From contig OZ024740.1 in assembly GCA_964016885.1 (NCBI GenBank), positions 244,900,001 through 244,964,000 on the forward strand: a DNA stretch of 64,000 nucleotides, in the 5' to 3' direction. The stretch comes from Eledone cirrhosa (taxonomy: Eukaryota). Positions 1,468 through 60,593 of the stretch are shown in pieces. The notes beneath the pieces were generated by a model, which was not told where the DNA came from, searched no databases, and worked only from the letters and a program-made list of their open reading frames with translations. Positions within the stretch are counted from its first letter, which is position 1. The number at the start of each line of letters is the position of its first letter. A program made the translations under genes and the position numbers.

Positions 1468-1802
1468 ATATTAACAAATGGAAACTATATTTATAAAACC
1501 ATATTTATTTCATATTTCAAGGACACCAAAGCAAATTATGGTGCCCTTTCATCAGATAAAATATAATATCGATCAGTTTTATAAACAAATATTGACATAC
1601 CCATAAAGAATGCGACCATGTTTATCCGGGAACTTCCAGCCGACATGGTCGCATTCTTTAAGGGTATGTCAATATTTGTTTATAAAACTGATCGATAATA
1701 TATTTTATCTGATGAAAGGGCACCATAATTTGCTTTGGTGTCCTTGAAATATGAAATAAATATGGTTTTAGAAATATAGTTTCCATTTGTTAATATATTG
1801 TA
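1462..1802. repeat. Long inverted repeat (about 160-bp arms, about 20-nt spacer), probable inverted PLE pseudo-LTR pair
   Basis: Arms near-identical; each has CTGATGA-aagggcacca/tggtgtcctt stem-GAAA (plus strand 1709-1749) but no clear stem III or NUH. Confidence 0.85.
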
Positions 1803-1887: not shown

Positions 1888-2458
1888 TACATATATATAT
1901 GTGTGCATGTATGTATATATACATACTACTGTACGTCCGTATACATATATGTATGAACGTGTACATACTTATATTTAAGTAACAGCCGTACTAAGAGTGG
2001 GAAATGAAATTTCGTTTCATTTTTTCCATTTATCGTTTTCGGTGCACCCGGCCGATTAACCCACTCGATATGCAAATTGGGCTACTCAGCCGTTAATATG
2101 CATAAGGAAAGTATATACTTTCAGACGTTCAACAATCTGGCAGGAAGGTATACGTTGCTGACGATAGCTAATAAGCTTGAAACTAGTACAGCGTTCCTTT
2201 GTCAGTGTTGAACAAACGAGCAACGATGGTTGCTAGACACTACGGCTTAATACGGGATGTTTGTTTACAAACACACCGAGTATTATAATAAATGTTCGGT
2301 GAATCCATACGTACATATATATATGTGTGCATGTATGTATATATATACATACTACTGTACGTCTGTATACATATATGTATGTACGTGTACATACTTGTAT
2401 TTAAGTAACAGCTGTACTAAGAGTGGGAAATGAAATTTCGTTTCATTTTTTCCGTTTA
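1888..2458 (+). mobile_element. Non-coding HHR element family A: about 420-bp unit in about 1.35 head-to-tail copies (retrozyme-like or non-autonomous PLE)
   Basis: About 150-bp direct repeats (1888-2033 vs 2306-2458), central HHR, ends in (TA)n; close copy at 50117-50706. Confidence 0.85.
2152..2194 (+). ncRNA. Minimal type I hammerhead ribozyme
   Basis: ACGTTG CTGACGA T-AGCT-aata-AGCT-T GAAA CTAG TA CAGCGT; palindromic stem III ACTAGT; predicted cut after GUA at 2188. Confidence 0.9.
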
Positions 2459-2547
2459 TATATATATATATATATAAGTTATTTCGGGTTCAATCAGGTG
2501 TAACCACAGTAAGTAAAGTACTCAATACATAGCAGAGTATAAATGTT

Positions 2548-2669: not shown

Positions 2670-3038
2670 TTTTTTTAAATTCACTGTACTCACTATGGTT
2701 ACCTTTACCGAATCGGTTTCGAGTCTCAAAAATAAATGGACAGTCCTTGCGGCCTTCCATTGAACAGATAAACTCTCGTCAGAAGGTTCTTTTTACTCGG
2801 AGAATATAAAATTCCCGAGTTCAAATTACGAACTGGCGCTATTCAAAATTGTTCCCGAGATGAGAATGAATGATGTGGAAGCAATTCTGTCCAGTGCCGT
2901 GTGTAAAGATAGAAGCAAAGGCAGGGAGGTCAGTCTGCTCCCGTTATAACTAGCAGCAGTCAGAACGACCAAATTTTTTCTCGACCAAGAGGAGATTAAT
3001 AATAATAAAGTATATATCCCTACACGCAAAAAGCGCCT
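2670..3038 (-). mobile_element. Partial unit of non-coding HHR element family B
   Basis: Homologous to 42326-43045 and 13219-13500. Confidence 0.85.
2701..2787 (-). ncRNA. Type I hammerhead ribozyme with extended stem II
   Basis: Minus strand: ACCTT CTGACGA GAGT-(about 50 nt)-ACTC GAAA CCG-att-CGG TA AAGGT. Confidence 0.9.
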
Positions 3039-3039
3039 A

Positions 3040-13137: not shown

Positions 13138-13218
<81 letters not shown>

Positions 13219-13223
<5 letters not shown>

Positions 13224-13496
13224 CAAGGTTTAGCAAATAAGAAAAAATTTCAAAATAAATTTTAAAAAATTAACTTTACTCACTATGGTTACCTTTACCG
13301 AATCGGTTTCGAGTCTCAAAAATAAATGGACAGTCCTTACAGCATCCATTGCAAAGATAACTTTTTCTTATTTGCTAAACCTTGATTATATATGTTCTGG
13401 CTCGTTAATTTATTAACCTGCCATTGAACCACATTGGCATATGGTTGGACAATACATGTGTCCCTAAGCGCTTTGTGCGTGTAGGGATATATTCTT

Positions 13497-13500
<4 letters not shown>
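13219..13500. mobile_element. Family B copy with internal inversion, flanked by (TA)n on both sides
   Basis: 13221-13360 matches 42810-42950; 13360-13500 is the reverse complement of about 42695-42838. Confidence 0.85.
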
Positions 13501-13557
<57 letters not shown>

Positions 13558-18201: not shown

Positions 18202-18721
18202 GGGGGGGGGGGGGGTTAAGCAATAAATATCCTATGTAATACCTCCACTTTGTTCTTATTATATACACTCTGCTCTGCATTGAGTGCTGACATTGGTACT
18301 CTCACCAGTTTTCTTCGGACTTACTAAATCTTTTGCACGTATAATGATCCCCGCTGGGTAGAGCACCTACAGCTGAGTGAGTACCATGGGGAGGTCTACC
18401 TGTCGTCTTATTCTGAGGACATACCAATACAGGATAGCAACACTTACCTGTGTTGGGTGGTACAGTACACGGACTCATTTACCCAATGGTTGCGGTGGTA
18501 TGCTTACCTTTTTTGACCACACCATCACCACAGACTACATCACACCTGACGTTGACCCTTCGGACCTAAAGGGTTACTTCAATTCCTGTATGAAGCCCCT
18601 CACCATGTACTTCTGGAGAAATTTGAGGGTAGACTCTTGCATTTTTTGGCGTGTTTTTTTATGATATATGTATGTGTGTATTTATATGTATGTGTGTATA
18701 TGTGTGTATGTATATGTATGT

Positions 18722-23144: not shown

Positions 23145-23340
23145 GCTGTTGTGTTCTCCAATATGCGTTGAAAATTTGTGCGGGGTCGATAAAATAAACA
23201 CCAGTAATGTATTGGATAATTGTTGGCCTTGTGCCAAAAATAGAAACAATTATTTTATTGAGTAAGAATATACTTGCGTATGTAGAAAGGTCTCTTTTTT
23301 TGCGGTGGATTGGGGGACTTTATGAATTTATTATTAAATA

Positions 23341-23810
23341 TCAAATTCCAAATTTTTCTCAATCTTAAGGAAAATCTTCCCATCCACACACAGATACCAC
23401 CAGATACTAAATGCCTTTACAGTTAAACTATCGTACTCTACTACACCTAACCTACAAATAAGAATAAACGCGTCTAACATATCGAAGCTTAAGAATATCT
23501 TAGAGCAGGTACATTCTTCAACTACTAGCACGAATATTTCAATAAATTACTTTAACTCACCAAACCCGGGAAGCATCAAAACTAATGCTAATACTGACAC
23601 CAACACGAATAGAGTATTTACAGAGCAACACAACGTAGCATATAGCCCTCCTAACGTAGCACGCAGTGCCCCCGATAGAGACACTAATACCGTCAACAAT
23701 AATAACAGCGCTGTAACATTTGTACAGCCAATACTAATGCTGGGAAACGCACTAGATCTGGACAAGCGATCACAAGTACATAGGCATATGTTTGGAGAGA
23801 ATTTAGTCTA
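23341..23810 (+). pseudogene. PLE RT thumb fragment followed by an Asn/Thr-rich in-frame extension (no ATG start, absent from the ORF track)
   Basis: KFFSILRKIFPSTHRYHQILNAFTVKLSYSTTPNLQIRINASNISKL aligns by eye with KIFLSLITKHFPPTHKYSNIFNRNTIKISYSTAPNLAHNITASNLAKL of the 737-aa ORF. Confidence 0.8.
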
Positions 23811-24290
23811 TTAAATCGACTGCTGTTCATGACTGGTACTTCGTTCTTTTCCAGCAGATTCAAGCTCAGAACATAAAGAGCCGCAACTAAATACCACAAG
23901 GCATTTTCCCGACACTCTTACGATTTTGCTAAATCACTGAGAATAAAAGAATATTTCTGAAAAAAAAACATTTAATTAAAAAAAATATATGGCATAGCAT
24001 AATATTATGGGGTCGGTACCAATTGAAATCAGATATAGATTATCAACAGTAACATCAAACTCGTTTTTCTTTGAAATATTTTATTAGTAATTAAACCAAT
24101 ATGATTCTCAAAAAAGAGATTAAAGTGCAGTGTTGATTTATTATCAATCTAATTACTCGTTATTTTTTACATTAAAAGATAATCTCATATAGTTTGTATC
24201 TTATCTAACATCGCCTGATTAATTTGAAACTTTTTAACATATTTCCTTACCACTCGCACACACATATCTATCTATCTATCAATCTATCTA

Positions 24291-24525: not shown

Positions 24526-24779
24526 CTATCTCTCTCTCTCTCTCTTTCTCTCTCTATATATACACATATATATATATATATGAATGTGTGACTGTGTGTG
24601 TACACATACATACATATATACATATACATATATATATATGTGTGTGTGTGATTGTATTGTTATACTTTGGGAGGGTCATGCTGCCAATAAAAAGACAAGC
24701 ATCTGTTGGTTTTCACTTCAATTTATTATAAATTTCCGGTTGGTTGGTTGGTTCGATAACCGGATGGTTGTTATATATT

Positions 24780-24822
24780 GTCAAAGCTCTTTCGTCACAC
24801 ATTGTGTGACCTCCTCAGTGAC
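24780..24822 (-). ncRNA. Minimal type I hammerhead ribozyme
   Basis: Minus strand: GTCA CTGAGGA G GTCACAC-aat-GTGTGAC GAAA GAGC TT TGAC. Confidence 0.75.
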
Positions 24823-24848
24823 TGTTTTTTTTATTTTGTGTCACTCCT

Positions 24849-25595
24849 TTGTTCTGTCCTACACCATCTTCTTTTTGTGTCATATATATATATTTATATA
24901 TATATATAGACCCTCATAGAACTGGACATGAAAGAATTTGCCCATTATACAGGAGCAAATCATGGAATAGATTAGATAGGACTAAACATAAGATAGGGAA
25001 AGCCACCGCATGGTACGACAATCAGAGATACCAGAGTGTCATGTTCGTGGACACTACCCCTGGGGGGAAATTAGCTAACCAGTGTAGAAAGGCCCTGAGA
25101 AAGACCCACTTAAAGATTAAAGTGGTAGAAAAGCCAGGAACCACCATAAAATCCCTGATTAGCAAAACCTACCCTTTTAAGAAAACCCACTGTACTAATA
25201 GAAAATGTATCATATGTAGAGTAAACCCCCGGATAAACTGTAAAACTAGAAACGTAGTCTATAGCATAAGATGTACAGAGGGTACTTGCAAAAACATGAC
25301 AACAACATACATAAGCGAGACAGCTCGTAGCATAGGTGAAAGGATAGACCAACACTGGGGGGAACTAAAAGGACGAAAAAACGGTTCAGTACTATACAAA
25401 CACGCCAGACAACAACATGACGGTAACATAGACAACATAGAAATTAAAATAATATCTAAACATAGAAGTGACCCAGCAGATAGGCAAATCAGAGAGGCCA
25501 GTGAAACAGAAATTAGAAGGCCAAAGTTAAACAGAAAAAATGAATGGAATAACAACAACACCCAAACAATCAATACTGACCTAAGAGAAATATAA
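24849..25595 (+). CDS. PLE C-terminal region: thumb, Cys-rich linker and GIY-YIG endonuclease (N-truncated; homology starts at about 24910)
   Basis: CTNRKCIIC...CKTRNVVYSIRC...YISETARSIGERIDQH...LYKH...H...RQIREA...P.LN. Confidence 0.8.
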   Translation: MFCPTPSSFCVIYIYLYIYIDPHRTGHERICPLYRSKSWNRLDRTKHKIGKATAWYDNQRYQSVMFVDTTPGGKLANQCRKALRKTHLKIKVVEKPGTTIKSLISKTYPFKKTHCTNRKCIICRVNPRINCKTRNVVYSIRCTEGTCKNMTTTYISETARSIGERIDQHWGELKGRKNGSVLYKHARQQHDGNIDNIEIKIISKHRSDPADRQIREASETEIRRPKLNRKNEWNNNNTQTINTDLREI

Positions 25596-25659
25596 ATAAA
25601 TAAACAGATTAAATAAAGATGGCGTAGACATACAATACAACAGGAGGAAACATAATAGC

Positions 25660-25702
25660 ACCACTGATGATGTTGCAGATATGCAACGAAAGAACTTTGT
25701 TA
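25660..25702 (+). ncRNA. Minimal hammerhead motif in PLE pseudo-LTR (stem I weak)
   Basis: CA CTGATGA T GTTGCA-gata-TGCAAC GAAA GAAC TT TG. Confidence 0.6.
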
Positions 25703-25892
25703 GACTATATATATGTGTTAGTGTCTATATTATATCTGAATTTTTTACCGTTGGTCAGTCAATGGTAAACATTGAGGACCGAATAAATTAACTGATATAA
25801 AAGATACAGAAGCGAAAACCAACCAAACAGTGAGTGTGTTCTGTTATTAATTCTGGCAATGTTATTACAACAATATGACCCTCCCCAAGTAT

Positions 25893-25955
<63 letters not shown>

Positions 25956-41750: not shown

Positions 41751-41772
41751 ATATTTATATATATGTATATAT

Positions 41773-41884
41773 ATTTATTAAAATAACAGATCAAAGTTTA
41801 AGCAAAGATTCGGTGCTTTCACGCTTAACGGGATCTTCTGAAACTAACAAAGTAAACCTGTAAACGCAGAAGTGGATATTTCAA
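41773..41884 (-). mobile_element. Solo fragment of the PLE pseudo-LTR, including the CAGAAGA hammerhead motif (41795-41845)
   Basis: Slightly diverged match to 46473-46584 and 49731-49842; same boundary at tttattaaaata; embedded in (TA)n. Confidence 0.9.
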
Positions 41885-42293: not shown

Positions 42294-42328
<35 letters not shown>

Positions 42329-42395
42329 CAAAGTTTAGCAAATAAGAAAAAGTTTCAAACAAAATTTTAAAATTTAACTTTACTTACTATGGTTA

Positions 42396-42479
42396 CCTTT
42401 ACCGAATCGGTTTCGAGTCTCAAAAATAAACAGACAGTCCATACGGCATCCGTTGCAAAGATAAACTCTCGTCAGAAGG
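42396..42479 (-). ncRNA. Type I hammerhead ribozyme with extended stem II
   Basis: Minus strand: CCTT CTGACGA GAGT...ACTC GAAA CCGATTCGG TA AAGG. Confidence 0.9.
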
Positions 42480-42880
42480 ATCTTTTCACTCGGAGAATAT
42501 AAAATTCCCGAGTTCAAATTACGAACTGGCGCTATTCAAAATTGTTCCCGAGATGAGAATAAATGAAGTGGAAGCAATTCTTTCAAGTGCCGTGTGTAAA
42601 GATAGATGCAGAGGCAGGGAGGTTAGTCTGCTCCCGCTATAACTAGCAGCTGTCAGAACGACCAAATTTTTTCTCAACCAAGAGGAGCATAATAATAATA
42701 AAGTATATGTTCCTACACGCACAAGGCGCTTAGGGACACATGTATTGTCCAACCATATGCCAATGTGGTTCAATGGCAGGTTAATAGATTAACGAGCCAG
42801 AACATATATAATCAAGGTTTAGCAAATAAGAAAAAGTTTCAAAATAAATTAAAAAAAATTAACTTTACTTACTATGGTTA

Positions 42881-42964
42881 CCTTTACCGAATCGGTTTCG
42901 AGTCTCAAAAATAAACGGACAGTCCATACGGCATCCGTTGTAAAGATAAACTCTCGTCAGATGG
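42881..42964 (-). ncRNA. Type I hammerhead ribozyme (one stem I mismatch)
   Basis: Minus strand: CCAT CTGACGA GAGT...ACTC GAAA CCGATTCGG TA AAGG. Confidence 0.8.
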
Positions 42965-43445
42965 ATCTTTTCACTCGGAGAATATAAAATTCCCGAGTTC
43001 AAATTACGAACTGGCGCTATTCAAAATTGTTCCCGCGATGAGAATAATATATATATATATATATATAGTTGCCGACTGCTCCATATGCAAATTAGACTTA
43101 TCAGTCCATGTACATAGGTATCAAAACTATATTTTAGCCTACATTGGATTCCAGCGGTGAGCAAGGAGAAAAAGCGATTTCTTGATAACGAGCATTGTGA
43201 GAAACAGTCGACTGTCAGCAGATTACCCGCTCCTGCTTTAGCTCGAATCAACCTGATGGCGCTAGCTATCACTTTCCTAAATTCATAGCTAAGGCTTTCA
43301 AATGTCTATTCATAAACAAATGTGTATTCACAAACATACTGTATATCGCTAGATATACAAATACATACATACATACATACATACATACATACATACATAC
43401 ATACATACATACATACATACATACATACATACATACATACATACA

Positions 43446-43976: not shown

Positions 43977-46440
43977 AAAAAACTGATATTCTATCGGAGG
44001 TATCTTACTGACCTCTACCAACAAGTTCTTAAGGGAGATACACTTATACCAGAGTGGTTGACATTAGCACAAACATTAATGGTCCCCAAGAACAAAGACA
44101 CCCACTTAGCACAAATCTACCGACCCATTGCATGCCAGAACCTGATGTATAAAATGTATACAGCCTCCCTGAACCTATTCCTCCAAGATCACTGTGAAAA
44201 TAATAACATCATCACAGATGAAACAAGCAGCTGGAAAAAAGGGGTTTGGGGATGTGCTGAACAACTCCTAATCAACAAAACTGCGATGTCGGAGGTGCGA
44301 CAACTTAGGAGGAATATGACTACAGTCTGGCTGGACTACAGGAAAGCTTTCGATTCTGTTCCCCACTCTTGGATGATAGAGGCCCTCCAACTTTCTAAAG
44401 TCCCAGACATTATTGTCAGAGCCATAGAGAGGCTGTCTTCTTCTTGGGCTACTATCCTAAGGTTAAAGACAGAGAGGGAGGACTCTATTTTCACTGATAA
44501 AATAAAATATTGCAGGGGTATATTTCAGGGGGACAGTCTCTCTGTGATATTATTCATCTTGTCATTAAACATCTTGTCCTTTCTGCTCAAGAAATGTGAG
44601 GGATACATCATTGGCTCACAGGAGGACAGAAATACGAACCTAACCTTTCTTTGTGGACTATCTGAAACTATATGCCAAGAACATGGATGGGATGAAGAAA
44701 AATCTTGACCTGGTTACAACGTTTTCAAAGGATATAGGAATGGAGTTTGGCCAAGATAAATGCTCTTACATGACTGTAAAGCGGGTAAAAACAACAACCC
44801 TATCTAGCAACATTGTCATCAATGGCCTAACTGTTTCACCGATATCTGATGAGGACTGCTACAGATACCTGGGGATAGATGAGAACATATCCTATAATGG
44901 TATCTGTAATAAATAACGCGTAACTAGGGAATACTACACCCGATTAAGAAAGATCTGGTCATCGGAACTCTCTGCGCAAAACAAAACAGTGGCTCACAAT
45001 GTGTTTGCTGTGCCTGTCCTAACGTTTGGAATACTCAATTGGACGATAGACGAAATCCGAACAGTTGATGTTGGAACTCGAAAAATACTGAACAACACCG
45101 GAAACTTCCACATCAACAGTGACATAGACCGCCTTTACTTGAAACGTAAGCAGGGAGGGGCAGAGGCCTAACATCAGTCCAGACAGCATTTGAATGTCGC
45201 ATCATATCTCTCCGACAACATCTACGAACCTCGAAGCGTAGGAGCCCGGTTCTCGAGCAAGACTATCTGCATGAAACAAATAAGATCATGAGAGTTGGGA
45301 AGGAACTCCTCGAGAAGTATTCCTTCTGTGATAATCAAAAATTCACACCCAGGGATGTCGCTCAGCAGTATCGCAGTGAATCCATGGATGAAAAACTGCT
45401 TGCCTATCAGCAAAAAATCATGCATGGATTTGTTGCCAGGAAGCTCCAGAGTGAGAGTAATATAGATAAGAAAAGTAGTCTATCTTGGACCAACAACCGC
45501 TATATTGGCTCCCACTTTGAAGGATACGCTTTTGCAATCCAGGAACAGGAGATTAACACGAAATACCTGATTCACAAAAGAGATAGGGATTCAGGCAAAA
45601 CACCTAGATTGTGATAACAAGTGCAGACTCTGCAGAACTAACATCGAGGATATCACCCATGTCATCAGCAGCTGTCCAAAGATGTCATCGCGGTACTATC
45701 TACCTATGATGCATGATGTAGTGGCCAAAACACTGTACAATGCAGTTCGTAAAAAAGATAGCCCCGATAATAAACACATTAAAAGCCACAGCAATGTGGA
45801 AGACATCCATGTACATAATATGAAAGAGTACTTGTGGAATATTCCAGTAAAAACCGCAATAAAATGCAGGCATAACAGACCAGATATTATGATATGGGAC
45901 AGGGAAAAGAAAGCATTCACTGTAGTGGAAATTAGCTGCCCAGCAGATGCCAATATAATCAAAGATTAGTGAAAAGGAGAATATTTATGCAGAACTGATG
46001 AGAAATCTGCAGATACTCCACGCTGATTACACCTTCAGATTTATGCCTGTGATTATTGGGGCACTGGGATATGTTAGTAACTGCCTCAGTACAAATCTTG
46101 AGAAGCTAGGCTTCACAGGAACAGAAAGAACACAACTAGTTAGGAAATTACAAGTACAATCCATTAATGGAACAGTAAAAATATGTAAAACATTCCAAAA
46201 ATTTTGCATCTAATAACTGCATATACACATGTACAGATGCAAAGCATATACACATGCACACATACAACTCAAAACATACACATCCACACATACAATAACA
46301 TCCATATCTACACATGCATACATACATAATCTACCTAGTTGATGTTGTGCAAATTCCAATGAGAGAGTTTTATGTCTACGTTAGAAACCGACTATCTCTC
46401 TATTGGTAAAACTTTATGAAATTATAAAACCAGAAGAACA
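43977..46440 (+). mobile_element. 5'-truncated, frameshifted R4/Dong-clade LINE (RT, CCHC knuckle, restriction-like endonuclease)
   Basis: YRPIACQNLMYK; WLDYRKAFDSVPHSW; GIFQGDSLS; YRYLGI; CRLC..EDITHVISSC; HNRPDIMIWD..VEISCP; PVIIGALG; (TACA)n on both flanks. Confidence 0.9.
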
Positions 46441-46493
46441 TACATACATACATATATATACATACATATATATTTATTAAAATAATAGATTAA

Positions 46494-46544
46494 AGTTTAA
46501 GCAAAGAATCGCTGCTTTCACCCTTAACGGGATCTTCTGAAACT
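46494..46544 (-). ncRNA. Hammerhead motif with U4A core variant in the 3' pseudo-LTR
   Basis: Minus strand: AGTTT CAGAAGA T-CCC-gttaa-GGG-T GAAA GCA-gcgattctt-TGC TT AAACT. Confidence 0.75.
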
Positions 46545-47384
46545 AACAAAGTCAATCTGTAAACGCAGTACTGGATATTTCAAAAAACGTTGCAACCGGA
46601 GGAAGACAGGAAGACGATACTTTGGTTCATGGTGACGTTCGCTGGCAAAGAACGGGAAAAAACGAATAATACGTCATTAATAGGAGCGGTGAAAAACAAT
46701 TACGCGCAAAGACAGAACCACGTTTATGGTATAAAAGAGGTCGTAGACTAATGTTCTCTAAGTGGTGCATAGAGACGTTCTCTGGCAATGAACGAAAAAA
46801 CGAAGATAATAAGTCATATGTGGAGCGTGGAGAACAATAGCACGCAAAGACAAAACCACGTAAATGGTATAGCAGAAGTTGTAGACTAAAATTCTAACTA
46901 GGAGACCGAATGAATCTCCGCTACAGAGTTAAGAACAAAGTAAATAAATACAATACTGAAGTAATAGAAACAAATAAATACATACGCGCAAACAGATACG
47001 TACATACAGAAGCATACGCAAAACCTTACCATAGGTATACAAAACCACGCACATATAAATATGTGTGTGTGTATGCTTGTGTACAAACAAATAAATAATT
47101 ATATAAACGTATATAAGTAAATAAATACGTATATAACAAGCGAACACATATACCTACAAATAAATACACGAAGGTTCGGAGACGTAAGTCAACTAAAACA
47201 AGAAGTGCACATATACACACACCCACCATACGTACGAACCTGCATACTCACGCAGACGCAAAACTCCCATATACACATAACCAAACCCTAAATACCAGAA
47301 TATGCAAAAATTATACGCCGTAACAGTCAAATATACGTACGAGAAGGTATACATACCTTCACAAAACATACGGGTAATATATAC

Positions 47385-49598
47385 TTACCTATGCAAATAA
47401 GTAAAGGAATAAACAAAACATATACTTAGCTCCCACATCAAGACGTAAAATATCCACGTATAGATCGTGCTATCCGTTAGGGTATAACGTGGGCTGTAAT
47501 ACAGGAAAGTTTTGTGCAATTTATGTTTACAAGCCGAAATTGCCTCAGATTTTTTGTTTAAGATGTGGTCTGTGGCGTAGAGTATTTCCAGGGCCTCGGC
47601 GGCGCAGAGGTCACATGGTCTTTTATTTCCGTTATACGATCTAGCCCTAGCTAGGATCTCCCAGTGTAACTTATATTGGGTGTGGTTGTCTTTTAGACTC
47701 CAGATATAAGCTGAAAGTGACGTCATATTCCTTCTTAGAGGGTAACGAAAAGAATGGGTATGCATGTAAAGACGCTGCTTGAAACTATTGGCGGTTAACC
47801 CTATGTAGGCCCTACGGGACGTGGGTGTTACAACCTTACATTTGTAGACAATGTTACTAGAGAGGCATTTTCCGGATAGGGGACAATCAGCCCGATTCCT
47901 ACAATTACAGTTAGTACTAACTACAGGGTTGCACGTGTTCCTACGGCTAGGTAGTTTAGCTAAATTTGAAGCTGTGATGTTATGTGCAAGGTTAGGAGCC
48001 GTAGAGTAAGAAATTTTAATAGTGTTTCTATTAAAAATGTTACTATATTTATGTGTAGGGGGAAAATGCTTCGTAATAAGGGAAAGAAAGATCTTAGCTA
48101 ATGGTGTGGCCACCTCCATGTTATATGGTGGGTTAAACCAACAAATGCGACGGGATCTATTTCTTCTAGGTCTATTCTCGTACTCTGTATATGCTACCCT
48201 ATCGACAAATCCACTTCGAGCAAGAACTTCATTGTAATAAGTGGAATGGTCGTTGAAAATGCGCTCGTTGGTGGAAAGACAGGAAAGACTCAACGAAACG
48301 TTTTTTACCAGGTTCTTGGTTATGCTGGCAGAATGGTTGGAATGCTTACTTATGTAATTAAGCGTATCATTCGGCTTTCTATACTGGTAATACAACCCAT
48401 TCAATAAATTGAGGGTAACGTCGAGGTAATTAACGACCGAGAGATTGGCCTCAACCTGTATAGAGAGGTTGAAGCCTTTAAAGAAGGCTGTGAGTTCTTT
48501 TCTGAATCTGTCGCAAGCACGAGGTCCGCACTTAGTCATGGTCAAAAGACCATCGTCACGGTACAAACCACCGCCCGCGTTGGGGAATTTGTCCTTGATA
48601 GAGAAAAGAAGGAAAAGGCCAATAAGATCAGTAACCTCCGCAGAATCACTGGCGCCCATACTCACGTCGAATGGGGTACTATTGGATTTTTTAATCCAAA
48701 TAGAGTCGTCGAAATTAATCACCGACTTTCGGGCATTAAGGATGACATCAACTTCGAAATCCTTAACCACTGTGAGTGTTTTAGCGAAATTGATAGCTCT
48801 AAGGAGAAGTGGTAAAGTGATGGAGGAGTAGTAATTGTTGATGTCGAATTGGATAAAACGGCAATGTTCCTTGTTACATATGCCGTTGAACCAATCAATC
48901 ACCGCGAAAGAATTGTTCCACAGTGCGAGAGGGGCCAAACTTCTAATTTCAGGTATAATTCTATCAAGAATCGTTTTACTAAGTCTACCTAAATCGGACT
49001 TCGTAGGGTTAATAAGCCGAATAGAGGGGTTGTTCGGAAAATTGGATTTGTGATCCTTCAGGGTAAAGTGGGGAGAGATAGGGTCCAGAGGTTCGGTCCG
49101 GTCCAGGATGTTGAGATCAGATGTGATTTTAAACCCAGCATCGTTGATTTCATTGATGACACACCGATCAGTTTTACGGTAATCCTTAGTTACAGCATTA
49201 TGTAGTAGTTGATGGTAAGTACTGCGCTCCACTTGATATAGGTTGCCTGTTTTGTCGGAATGGACGTGCACGGCGTTAGAATCCTTAATAGAACGAATTC
49301 TATTCTTCAGGTCTTGCTGGAAGGAATTACTCCTATTCCGAAATTTGATACTCCGAATGAGTTCCAAGACATCATTTTCGAAGGGTAGCAATGCTGGGTT
49401 CCACGGAGGGTTATTATAGGTTTTAAATCCAAATTTGTCCTGTTTGTTGTTTGCTTTTCGCGGATTATCGAAATAAAAGGCACGCCAACGCAACCTTTTA
49501 ATGAACGCGTCTGTTTTCTGTATCAGGAGTTTTAGGTATGTTTTCCTGCTTGGTACGGGTATGTTCTTTGTAGAAATATTCAGATGTTGTTTCTGCAT
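47385..49598 (-). CDS. PLE reverse transcriptase with C-terminal GIY-YIG endonuclease, 737 aa (motifs suggest the Hydra clade)
   Basis: SDKTGNLY; IRLINP; FDINNYYSSI; MGASDSAEVTDL; LYRDDGL; VNYLDVTL; WFNPPY; CNCRNRADCPLSGKC; IVYKC..AYIGLT..FKQR. Confidence 0.95.
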   Translation of the reverse strand: MQKQHLNISTKNIPVPSRKTYLKLLIQKTDAFIKRLRWRAFYFDNPRKANNKQDKFGFKTYNNPPWNPALLPFENDVLELIRSIKFRNRSNSFQQDLKNRIRSIKDSNAVHVHSDKTGNLYQVERSTYHQLLHNAVTKDYRKTDRCVINEINDAGFKITSDLNILDRTEPLDPISPHFTLKDHKSNFPNNPSIRLINPTKSDLGRLSKTILDRIIPEIRSLAPLALWNNSFAVIDWFNGICNKEHCRFIQFDINNYYSSITLPLLLRAINFAKTLTVVKDFEVDVILNARKSVINFDDSIWIKKSNSTPFDVSMGASDSAEVTDLIGLFLLFSIKDKFPNAGGGLYRDDGLLTMTKCGPRACDRFRKELTAFFKGFNLSIQVEANLSVVNYLDVTLNLLNGLYYQYRKPNDTLNYISKHSNHSASITKNLVKNVSLSLSCLSTNERIFNDHSTYYNEVLARSGFVDRVAYTEYENRPRRNRSRRICWFNPPYNMEVATPLAKIFLSLITKHFPPTHKYSNIFNRNTIKISYSTAPNLAHNITASNLAKLPSRRNTCNPVVSTNCNCRNRADCPLSGKCLSSNIVYKCKVVTPTSRRAYIGLTANSFKQRLYMHTHSFRYPLRRNMTSLSAYIWSLKDNHTQYKLHWEILARARSYNGNKRPCDLCAAEALEILYATDHILNKKSEAISACKHKLHKTFLYYSPRYTLTDSTIYTWIFYVLMWELSICFVYSFTYLHR

Positions 49599-49751
49599 GA
49601 TGAATATAAGTCAATAGAGTGCTCAACCGAAGGAGCCAAATAGTAATAATAATAAAATTGAAGACTAAAATCCAAAGAGGGCTCGATAAGGAAAATATAT
49701 ATCAAATATATAAGAACCGAAGAGCAAATGTTTATTAAAATAACAGATTAA

Positions 49752-49802
49752 AGTTTAAGCAAAGAATCGCTGCTTTCACCCTTAACGGGATCTTCTGAAA
49801 CT
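49752..49802 (-). ncRNA. Hammerhead motif with U4A core variant in the 5' pseudo-LTR
   Basis: Identical to 46494-46544. Confidence 0.75.
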
Positions 49803-49846
49803 AACAAAGTCAATCTGTAAACGCAGTACTGGATATTTCAAAAAAC

Positions 49847-49922
<76 letters not shown>

Positions 49923-50116: not shown

Positions 50117-50706
50117 AATCCATACGTACATATATATATGTGTGCATGTGTGTGTATATATATACATACTACTGTACGTCTGTATACATATATGTATGTA
50201 CGTGTACATACTTATATTTAAGTAACAGCCGTACTAAGAGTGAGAAATGAACTTTCGTTTCATTTTTTTCCACTTATCGTTTCCTGTGCACCCGGTTGAT
50301 TAACTCACTCGATATGCAAATTAAGCTGCTCAGCCGTTAATATGCATAAGGAAAGTATATACTTTCAGACGTTCAATCATCTGGCAGGAAGGTATACGTT
50401 GCTGACGATAGCTAATAAGCTTGAAACTAGTACAGCGTTCCTTTGTCAGTGTTGAAGAAACGAGCAACGATGGTTGCTAGACACTACGGCTTAATACGGG
50501 ATGTTTGTTTACAAACACACCGAGCATTATAATAAATGTTCAGTGAATCCATACGTACATATATATATGTGTGTGCATGTGTGTATATATATATACATAC
50601 TACTGTACGTCTGTATACATATATGTATGTACGTATACATACTTATATTTAAGTAACAGCCGTACTAAGAGTGAGAAATGAGATTTCGTTTCATTTTTTC
50701 CGTTTA
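50117..50706 (+). mobile_element. Second copy of HHR element family A (HHR at 50396-50438)
   Basis: Same partial-tandem layout and end point (ccgtttatata) as 1888-2458; HHR sequence identical. Confidence 0.88.
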
Positions 50707-50734
50707 TATATGTATATATATATAATAGAAATAG

Positions 50735-54538: not shown

Positions 54539-54942
54539 TACATACATGTCTGTAACACTATGTTGGAGCACCAATACGAATTATATATATTGATCAAAAT
54601 TATTACTTTTTATTTGTGTATCTATCATTAAAATTTAATTCAGCTGATTTATGGACCTATCCCGGAGCTGCTTTTAGCATTCCTGTTGGTCCGTCTCTAT
54701 CCTTCTGCTTAAGCAGCTTCTGCATATGCATTCATAGTTGGTGTTGAATGCATGGCCGATGGCTGAACTATGTGTGTTTAGTAAGACACGGTCCACTGGT
54801 GATGGGTTTCGTGTCTATAAGGTGCCTGTTATCTAATAATGGTACTTTGCAGTATTTTTTGTCGGCCCGAAATAGCTATAGAGTCATTAGGAATCAGTTT
54901 TTACCATCTTAATGTAAGATCATCCCTTATTTTAGAATTTCT

Positions 54943-58386
<3,444 letters not shown>

Positions 58387-59766: not shown

Positions 59767-59827
59767 TTTCATTCTGATGATTGAAAACAAAATTTGTTTG
59801 CTTTCAAGAAACCACTGGTAAATGAAA
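59767..59827 (+). ncRNA. Type I hammerhead ribozyme
   Basis: TTTCATT CTGATGA TTGAAA...TTTCAA GAAA CC-act-GG TA AATGAAA; 7-bp stem I; predicted cut after A59820. Confidence 0.9.
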
Positions 59828-60080: not shown

Positions 60081-60577
60081 ATATTGTTATACTTTGGGAG
60101 GGTCATGTTGCCAATAAGAAACACACGCACCAGTTGCTTTCACTTCAATTTATTATATATTTATAAATTTACAAATTTATAAATTTATAAATTTCTGGTT
60201 GGTTGGTTGGTTCCACAACCAGATAGTTCTTTATATATAGTCATAGTCCTTTCGTCACACACTTTGTGACCTCTTCAGTGACTGAGGATTCCTTTCTTTG
60301 TCTCCGTGCCTCTCCTTTGTTCTGTCCTACGCCATTTTGTTTCTGTGTGTGTGTTGTGTGCTCAGTTTGCGCATGCGCCACATCCGGGTGTCTGTGTGTG
60401 TTCATGTTCATTTATCTATTTGTTTATTTATTTATTTATTTATTTATTTACATGTTATTGGTTGGTTGTTTGTTCTATGTGTGTGTGTGTTTTCATTTTG
60501 TCCTTAATTGTAAGTTGTGATGTTGCTGTTCCACTCATATTTTTTGGCAACATGACCCTCCCAAAGTATAACAATAT
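60081..60577 (-). mobile_element. PLE pseudo-LTR-derived element with perfect 34-bp terminal inverted repeats
   Basis: atattgttatactttgggagggtcatgttgccaa (60081-60114) and its reverse complement (60544-60577); homologous to 24657-24880. Confidence 0.85.
60239..60283 (-). ncRNA. Minimal type I hammerhead ribozyme
   Basis: Minus strand: AGTCA CTGAAGA G GTCAC-aaagtgt-GTGAC GAAA GGAC TA TGACT. Confidence 0.8.
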
Positions 60578-60593
60578 ATATATATATATATAT

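What the first reader, a model, noticed from the sequence alone, without database searches (positions are those of the whole stretch)
46473..49848. Intact, recently inserted Penelope-like element: candidate driver of the local HHR families
Seen: an uninterrupted 737-aa RT plus GIY-YIG ORF, pseudo-LTR copies differing at one of 118 positions, and (TA)n flanks, while every other coding TE in the window is truncated or broken. The YRDDGL, WFNPPY and CNCR..CPL.G.C motifs recall the Hydra clade of PLEs (from memory, needs a tree). Inference: young, potentially active, and inserting into the same (TA)n context as the non-coding HHR units.
Basis: partly seen in the sequence, partly recalled or inferred. 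Interest (0 to 1): 0.7.

Follow-up and report, generated by a model that had tools for sequence, protein, structure and literature searches.

The report
Hydra-type Penelope retrotransposon, mutated hammerhead
This is a slightly decayed, probably disabled copy of a jumping gene that has left about 18,000 matching end motifs in this genome, mostly at TA repeats; the whole family carries a ribozyme motif with a changed core base that likely stops it cutting, and mirror-image insertions almost always use two different fixed end points, one per arm, which likely shows how these elements are copied.

Summary
The element is real: a 737-codon RT plus GIY-YIG frame between 118-nt repeats, with every protein motif published for Hydra-clade Penelope-like elements. 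Another family of that clade is published from an octopus, and this scan noted Hydra families elsewhere in this genome. 'Intact' is overstated. Sister copies encode 709 aa; this copy has a private 1-bp deletion and private changes at near-invariant thumb residues (P405Q, P423S, R437S), so it is probably dead. The family is large (18,310 exact motif copies), 96-99% alike among long copies, shows purifying selection, and 62 of 72 sampled ends run into (TA)n. 'Driver of the local hammerheads' is not supported: one local family is the end of a separate Neptune-like element, and the tandem 431-nt unit shares no sequence with this one. New here: 99% of the family's hammerhead motifs have A for the core U4, with no canonical subfamily. 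43 of 44 inverted insertions pair one short end with one 91-nt-tailed end. 12% of motifs start at the first hammerhead base, often after an extra G (likely the RNA cap), and there is no stop peak at the cut site. The template is likely uncut, capped RNA primed at two sites.

The parts
46473..49848 (-). Whole insertion: truncated upstream tandem repeat, 5' UTR, ORF, 3' UTR, terminal repeat
49731..49848 (-). Upstream pseudo-LTR (5'-truncated tandem copy of the 3' end)
49752..49802 (-). Hammerhead motif, upstream copy: stem I AGTTT/AAACT, core CAGAAGA (A for U4 at 49796), stem II CCC/GGG, GAAA, stem III; predicted cut between 49757 and 49756; 49802 is the likely transcription start
49640..49730 (-). 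91-nt optional tail between end site 1 (49731-49728) and end site 2 (49640-49637); here part of the 5' UTR
49681..49725 (-). Predicted GCTC/GAGC hairpin just past end site 1
   Evidence: folding only, no covariation test
49621..49636 (-). Predicted GCTC/GAGC hairpin just past end site 2
   Evidence: folding only, no covariation test
47385..49598 (-). ORF, 737 aa in this copy (709 aa in sister copies): RWR at 37, DKT at 115, RT D252 and YRDD 346-349, thumb, CxCx5C linker 564-572, GIY-YIG domain
48225..48386 (-). Thumb region with private changes P405Q, P423S, R437S, R440C, A458V
   Evidence: family alleles dominate raw reads of another study at 48385, 48332, 48288
47514..47909 (-). Linker and GIY-YIG endonuclease: Y585, Y598, G600, R609, H613, C662/C665, E668, N681, C690/H692 all present
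47385..47491 (-). Private 1-bp deletion near 47490 and the resulting out-of-frame, hydrophobic C-terminal extension
46591..47469 (-). Long CpG-rich 3' UTR with a 138-nt tandem duplication (46623-46889)
46473..46590 (-). Terminal pseudo-LTR with second hammerhead motif (46544-46494; A for U4 at 46538); the copy stops at end site 1
49848..49921 (.). (TA)37 at the 5' junction
46436..46472 (.). Mixed TA/CATA microsatellite at the 3' junction
41771..41884 (-). Older solo end fragment of the same family (about 88% alike), also with the CAGAAGA core, between TA runs

Best explanation
This is a probably disabled copy of a large family of Hydra-type Penelope-like retrotransposons whose ends run into (TA)n, whose hammerhead motif has A instead of the core U4 in 99% of copies and likely no longer cuts, and which is likely copied from uncut, capped RNA primed at two fixed internal sites. 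Shown: RT plus GIY-YIG frame; two fixed 3' ends 91 nt apart; one of each end in inverted insertions; a pile-up of arm starts at the first hammerhead base; no pile-up at the predicted cut site. Inferred: transcription starts at 49802; the protein nicks both strands of a TA run; one nick primes at site 1 and the other at site 2, each just 5' of a small hairpin; the two cDNAs join head to head, giving inverted arms, or a one-armed copy like this one when the second arm is lost. Tandem upstream repeats would come from read-through RNA or a template jump across the terminal repeat (not resolved).
For: Protein motifs match the published Hydra description; folds match TERT-like RT and I-TevI. Motif counts: 18,310 in all, of which T at position 4 in 71 and C or G in 105, so A in 18,134; all 26 Hydra rows of the published table begin CTGA; single changes in the CUGA turn gave low activity in a mutational scan (PMC9901934). 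Ends: of 76 motif copies in 60 position-ordered loci, 46 stop at site 1, 26 at site 2, 2 read through, 2 have a partial tail; 62 of the 72 ends run into TA repeats against 4.5% background. 43 of 44 distinct abutting inverted pairs have one end of each type (p about 3e-12 against one half). TA runs of 7-8 nt between the two sites are not used as ends, so pairing to the target does not choose the site. 2,177 motifs have a non-T base before 49802-equivalent; first 100 listed: G 54, A 23, C 23, against G 7 of 100 at a control T (hand counts); 18 of 20 fetched were true arm starts. Cut site 564 against 500 at the neighbouring base. Two internal start sites, nicking of both strands and no need for hammerhead cutting were shown in vitro for a Poseidon element (PMC11167929). 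Shared variants are 15 silent to 7 replacement, singletons 158 to 323, p = 0.001.
Against: No RNA run was laid, so start site, cap and lack of cutting are read from DNA scars only. Of 12 G cases inspected, 2 can take the G from the opposite arm and 4 more from a short templated duplication. Cut-site starts exceed the control slightly (ratio 1.13, p = 0.053) and about 38 of the first 100 have G, which I explain by stem I microhomology but did not find directly (0 such junctions in my loci). The stems of the hammerhead remain intact, and a U4C viroid variant keeps enough activity in vivo (PMC3088659); the Poseidon ribozyme needs its protein to cut, so protein-assisted cutting of U4A is possible. 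No cap-G footprint was found in continuous copies (138 non-T cases, mostly C), so the template jump has no support. No tree with named reference elements was built. One inverted pair (L122) has site 1 at both ends.
Confidence: 0.62

Rival explanations
1. This copy is an intact, active master element that also mobilises the neighbouring protein-less hammerhead repeats.
For: Open frame with all catalytic residues; only 18 private substitutions in 3,376 nt; the 431-nt unit has Penelope-type anatomy, with two ends into (TA)n and one of each in 7 of 7 two-armed loci; the deletion lies in a homopolymer and could be an assembly error.
Against: Private changes at P405, P423, R437 (conserved in 101, 100, 102 of 102 homologues) and a frameshift; no near-identical daughter among 29 closest long copies, nearest 1.33%. 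The 60082-60580 family has its own CCHH-type ORF in 19 of 19 loci. The 431-nt unit shares no sequence with this element, and its two ends lie about 59 nt apart like the CCHH element's 60, not 91.
Confidence: 0.1
2. The U4A hammerhead still cuts slowly, helped by the element's protein or by dimer formation, and releases unit-length or circular RNA that serves as template and explains the tandem copies.
For: Stems I-III and the rest of the core are kept family-wide; stem III is longer than in most published Hydra motifs; tandem upstream repeats up to more than 1.6 kb are seamless; protein-assisted cutting and tolerated U4C are published; the two arms of one insertion are closer to each other than to any of 27-29 other copies in 7 of 9 cases, which fits one template.
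Against: Both fixed ends lie 26-29 and 117-120 nt beyond the cut site, and thousands of short arms run through it to the first hammerhead base; no clear excess of starts at the cut site; intact stems are also expected in a young family without selection.
Confidence: 0.2
3. The inverted arms arise by self-priming or fold-back of one cDNA, as proposed for rotifer Penelope elements, and the pile-up at 49802 is a polymerase stall rather than the RNA's 5' end.
For: Self-priming was proposed from junction palindromes (PMC3846280); many junctions near the cut site fold back on stem III; arms of one insertion are alike.
Against: Fold-back alone does not explain why either the long or the short arm can carry the tail while the other never does, nor the excess of G before the first base; the pile-up lies 5' of the whole structure, where a stall is not expected.
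Confidence: 0.15

Closest known systems
Hydra clade of Penelope-like elements, including Hydra-1_Obim of Octopus bimaculoides (Craig et al. 2021, PMC8557442)
   Same: Single ORF with RT and C-terminal GIY-YIG; RW[K/R], DKT, CxCx5C linker, CxxC and CxH around the conserved E and N, no CCHH; insertion into (TA)n; hammerhead in the pseudo-LTR with the T...T flanks of stem II seen in many published rows. By eye the Hydra-1_Obim sequence shares D-S-A and D-L-I-G in RT motif 4, where most homologues have D-G-A and E-L-V-G.
   Different: A different family from Hydra-1_Obim (different N-terminus and hammerhead, read by eye only). Hammerhead core has A for U4, whereas all 26 published Hydra rows have CTGA. 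Unit is 3.26 kb against generally under 3 kb. At least 18,000 end motifs. Tail is 91 nt against the 30-40 nt described for Penelope-like elements.
PAc, Poseidon element of Anolis carolinensis (Frangieh et al. 2024, PMC11167929)
   Same: Two internal start sites that bound an optional tail; AT-rich targets; hammerhead upstream of the start sites; uncut RNA is the main template.
   Different: Different clade; its hammerhead has a canonical core and cuts with protein help; its start sites lie inside the ORF and did not differ between strands in vitro, whereas here genomic arms use one site each.
Metazoan non-LTR retrozymes (bioRxiv 10.64898/2026.07.22.740005; PMC7229834 seen as a search listing only)
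   Same: The neighbouring 431-nt tandem hammerhead unit fits this kind and shows Penelope-type ends.
   Different: The element of this finding is the protein-coding type; no sequence link between it and the 431-nt unit was found.
Twin priming of LINE-1 (recalled, not read)
   Same: Both target strands prime reverse transcription and the cDNAs join to give an inversion.
   Different: Here both priming sites are fixed and the two arms copy overlapping sequence, giving inverted duplications.

Membership tests
Penelope-like elements, endonuclease-positive | Single ORF with telomerase-like RT and GIY-YIG endonuclease | tested here: met
   Best PDB match TERT 3du5 (E 4.8e-9); domain model matches I-TevI, Z 9.1, rmsd 2.3, 89 aligned. 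Pfam gave no significant match.
Penelope-like elements, endonuclease-positive | Pseudo-LTRs from partial tandems, inverted 5' copies, optional tail | tested here: met
Hydra clade | C-terminal endonuclease, RWK-type motif near the N-terminus, DKG changed to DKT | tested here: met
   RWR at 37-39, DKT at 115-117 (definition)
Hydra clade | CxCx5C linker | tested here: met
   CNCRNRADC at 564-572
Hydra clade | [quoted passage not shown] | tested here: met
   C662/C665, E668, N681, C690/H692; no CCHH pattern in the alignment
Hydra clade | Insertion into (TA)n | tested here: met
   62 of 72 ends, background 4.5%
Hydra clade | Canonical hammerhead in the pseudo-LTR (described as universal in the clade) | tested here: not met
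   Motif is in place but has A for U4 in 18,134 of 18,310 copies; hence filed as a variant, not a typical member
Hydra clade | Length generally under 3 kb | tested here: not met
   Repeat unit is 3,258 nt; a descriptive, not a strict, feature
Hydra clade | Placement in an RT phylogeny with named references | not tested
Penelope/Poseidon, Neptune, Nematis | CCHH motif in the endonuclease and DKG motif | tested here: not met
   a CCHH-type element of the same genome aligns only over 62 residues, E 0.011
Naiad/Chlamys | N-terminal endonuclease | tested here: not met
   Endonuclease is at residues 583-695
Active autonomous copy | Family-length protein without changes at invariant residues | tested here: not met
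   Frameshift and P405Q, P423S, R437S; activity itself not testable here
Active hammerhead ribozyme | Self-cleavage of the RNA | not testable with these tools
   No RNA holder listed; indirect DNA scars only

The most novel reading that the evidence does not exclude
A Hydra-type Penelope family amplified to tens of thousands of ends after its hammerhead lost catalysis, which shows the ribozyme is dispensable and survives as the first nucleotides of a capped RNA; every insertion is made by one complex that primes the two target strands at two different fixed RNA sites, which explains the tail and the inverted repeats of Penelope-like elements in general.
Probability: 0.4. Interest if true: 0.68.

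Novelty: new variant of a known kind. Interest (0 to 1): 0.46.

Why it matters
What the hammerhead does in Penelope-like elements, and how their tails and inverted repeats arise, are stated as open in PMC8557442. This family gives a natural pair for the first question (a fixed U4A core in a very successful family, beside families with canonical cores in the same genome) and a sharp, countable rule for the second (one end of each type in 43 of 44 inverted insertions, also 7 of 7 and 3 of 3 in two other local families). Both can be tested with the published in vitro assay. The window copy itself is ordinary: a decaying member of a known clade already reported from an octopus.

Tried and rejected
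Rfam at gathering thresholds found no family in the window; free folding does not give the hammerhead as the lowest-energy form (z 0.49), so the motif rests on the core-and-stem pattern. Pfam found nothing significant in the ORF. A canonical-core subfamily was sought and not found. Choice of end sites by pairing to (TA)n was rejected as sufficient. A cap-G footprint of template jumping was sought and not found. No RNA holder listed. Insertion polymorphism of this copy could not be judged: both flanks are repeats and no joint over the element was listed. Runs under other organism codes hold near-identical pieces at low depth; host DNA in mixed samples cannot be told from related species or transfer, so nothing is claimed. 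Cluster look-up gave no names for 5 of 5 homologues. Literature searches: 'Penelope-like, Hydra, hammerhead', 'Penelope-like, hammerhead, dimer, variant', 'hammerhead, U4A, core', 'Penelope, pLTR, tail, inverted, priming', 'Penelope, octopus, Hydra, transposable' from 2021 (80), 'Penelope-like, twin priming', 'Penelope, non-templated G, cap, retrotransposon', 'hammerhead ribozyme, uridine turn, mutation, U4C': no listing described a fixed U4A core, a quantified one-tail rule or a cap G in these elements. A 2017 paper on hammerhead variants of Penelope-like elements (recalled) is not held and may list U4 variants; supplementary Figure S7 of PMC3088659 and bioRxiv supplements were not seen. No dimer prediction was run. 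The long-armed hammerhead family (42320-43047) and three other local motifs were not searched genome-wide.
Full report
Observation. The minus strand holds an ATG frame from 49598 to 47385, 737 aa without a stop. The repeats 46473-46590 and 49731-49848 differ at one of 118 positions. A perfect (TA)37 lies at 49848-49921 and a mixed TA/CATA run at 46436-46472. Other coding remnants in the window are broken: no other non-repetitive frame exceeds 409 aa. The element's CpG observed/expected ratio is 1.11 against 0.72 for the window.

Protein. A search of residues 1-704 found 586 proteins at E 1e-10 or better among 7,993 scored candidates; 120 were listed, at 37-56% identity. I aligned 102 of these 120 with the window protein. 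The predicted structure has mean pLDDT 92 and its best PDB match is telomerase RT. The last domain alone matches the GIY-YIG nucleases I-TevI, EndoII and UvrC (Z 9.1, 7.3, 6.0). Craig et al. 2021 (PMC8557442; I read the abstract, sections 11 and 15, passages, and parts 1, 2 and 52 of 59 of the supplement) define the Hydra clade by RWK, DKT, a CxCx5C linker, loss of CCHH, CxxC and CxH around the conserved E and N, and (TA)n targets. All protein features are present. Their table lists Hydra-1_Obim from Octopus bimaculoides; by eye it is another family of the same kind. No tree with named references was built. The host is likely an octopus, inferred from this likeness and the 3.0-Gb genome; not tested.

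This copy is not intact. The genome search scored 40 of 7,941 candidates and all 40 are long copies at 96-100% identity, the window included. Of the 29 best others, 13 have a 708-709-aa frame. The window copy lacks one base near 47490 that 0 of 29 lack, which replaces the last six residues by 34 out-of-frame ones; 309 of 360 raw reads from another study have that base. Catalytic residues D252, D348, D349, Y585, Y598, R609, E668 and N681 are present. Strictly private codon changes are 7 replacements and 3 silent, among them P405Q, P423S and R437S at positions conserved in 101, 100 and 102 of 102 homologues. It has 18 private substitutions in 3,376 nt, its nearest relative is 1.33% away, and the closest pair among the 30 copies is 0.82% apart. 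Only 2 of the 13 open-frame sisters have no change at highly conserved residues. The family was under purifying selection while its subfamilies formed (shared variants 15 silent to 7 replacement, singletons 158 to 323, p = 0.001). So the family is young and may hold active copies, but these 30 were chosen by likeness to the window copy and show no current burst.

Family size and target. A 31-nt motif from the terminal repeat occurs 18,310 times exactly. I fetched the first 60 loci along contig 1. Most arms are short: median 246 nt, 5 of 78 at least 3 kb, 85-98% alike to the window copy. Of 76 motif copies, 46 stop at site 1 (46473 equivalent), 26 at site 2, 91 nt further, 2 read through and 2 have a partial tail; 62 of the 72 ends run into TA repeats, background 4.5%.

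The hammerhead. Rfam finds none, but a pattern scan gives a type I motif in both repeats with core CAGAAGA. Genome-wide, position 4 is A in 18,134, T in 71, C or G in 105, so U is at the level of later mutation. An older local fragment also has A. All 26 Hydra rows of the published table have CTGA, and the paper calls canonical hammerheads universal in the clade. Single changes in the CUGA turn gave low activity in a mutational scan (PMC9901934, passages), but a U4C viroid variant works in vivo (PMC3088659, passages). Loss of cutting is therefore inferred, not shown.

How it is likely copied. In 102 loci I found 58 outward-facing arm pairs; 13 were dropped (8 for gaps over 60 nt, all of them also one end of each type; 5 with an untyped or read-through arm). 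Of the 45 left, one insertion was counted twice; 43 of 44 have one arm ending at site 1 and the other at site 2, whichever arm is longer. TA runs of 7-8 nt between the two sites are not used, so the sites are not chosen by pairing alone. Each site is followed by a predicted GCTC/GAGC hairpin, a lead taken from earlier notes of this scan. Arm starts pile up at the first base of hammerhead stem I: 2,177 motifs have a non-T base before it, G in 54 of the first 100 against 7 of 100 at a control base (my hand counts), and 421 head-to-head junctions have both arms stopping within 24 nt of it. 18 of 20 fetched cases are true arm starts; in 6 of 12 G cases the G could also be templated. An extra G at the 5' end is the known scar of a copied cap (own knowledge), so 49802 is the likely start of transcription. 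Starts at the predicted cut site number 564 against 500 one base upstream, so cut RNA is not a main template. This agrees with the in vitro work on a Poseidon element (PMC11167929, parts 1-2 of 4 read): both strands nicked and extended, two internal start sites bounding the tail, hammerhead cutting not needed. That a tail is often on one end only is already noted in PMC8557442 and PMC3846280 (passages); the strict count is what is added. The two arms of an insertion are closer to each other than to any other copy in 7 of 9 cases, which fits one source but also later gene conversion. How direct tandems form is unresolved; a test for a cap scar in continuous copies was negative.

The driver claim. 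The hammerhead family at 60082-60580 (and 24655-24880) lies on a CCHH-type, Neptune-like ORF in 19 of 19 fetched loci, so it needs no outside driver. The 431-nt unit (1888-2459, 50117-50707) forms tandems without an ORF, matches the Hydra protein in 1 of 19 loci and the CCHH protein in 2 of 19, and shares only simple repeats with this element. It does have two ends into (TA)n, one of each in 7 of 7 two-armed loci, so some Penelope-like enzyme likely moves it, as proposed for retrozymes (bioRxiv 10.64898/2026.07.22.740005, part 1 of 5 and passages). Its ends are about 59 nt apart, like the 60 of the CCHH element, not 91. A fragment of another Hydra-type family lies at 23353-23490 (54% identity). 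The driver is therefore open, and this family is one candidate of several. PMC4209133 (part 1 of 4) was read for background; PMC3376415 (passages) added nothing.

Verdict. A new variant of a known kind: Hydra-type by all protein features, atypical in its hammerhead. The copy is probably dead and is not shown to drive its neighbours. The family-level patterns make two open questions about Penelope-like elements directly testable. Interest 0.46.

Noticed in passing
window 1888-2459 and 50117-50707 (+): Tandem 431-nt non-coding unit with a canonical hammerhead (2158, 50402), two fixed ends about 59 nt apart and inverted arms; retrozyme-like, 1,193 candidates in the genome search.
   Followed up: partly
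window 60082-60580 and 24655-25900: Ends and a truncated ORF of CCHH-type (Neptune-like) Penelope elements that also end in (TA)n at two sites 60 nt apart; near copies are 97-99% alike.
   Followed up: partly
window 42320-43047, 2673-3039, 13153-13502 (-): Another repeat family with a long-armed hammerhead (stem II about 60 nt), in tandem at 42320-43047.
   Followed up: no
window 1479-1790, 2560-2660, 59767-59827: Two fold-back elements and one single motif with hammerhead-like cores between or near TA runs.
   Followed up: no
window 23338-23814 (+) and 18397-18513 (+): Fragments of other Hydra-type proteins (54% over 46 aa; 38% over 39 aa).
   Followed up: no
window 43978-46435 (+): Broken non-LTR retrotransposon (RT, zinc finger, likely restriction-like endonuclease) between CATA runs; the Hydra copy sits in the microsatellite at its 3' end.
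   Followed up: partly
window 46623-46889 (-): 138-nt tandem duplication in the CpG-rich 3' UTR (79% match), present family-wide; role unknown.
   Followed up: no
window 47999-48645: Private changes of this copy cluster in about 650 nt of the ORF; could be chance, conversion from a decayed copy or an assembly mosaic.
   Followed up: no
window 49600-49848, runs X4, X7, X8, X10, X13: Runs under other organism codes hold near-identical pieces at low depth, with no difference listed at the U4 position in the four runs; origin not resolvable.
   Followed up: partly
window 54932-57731 (-): Broken APE-plus-RT LINE in three frames.
   Followed up: no
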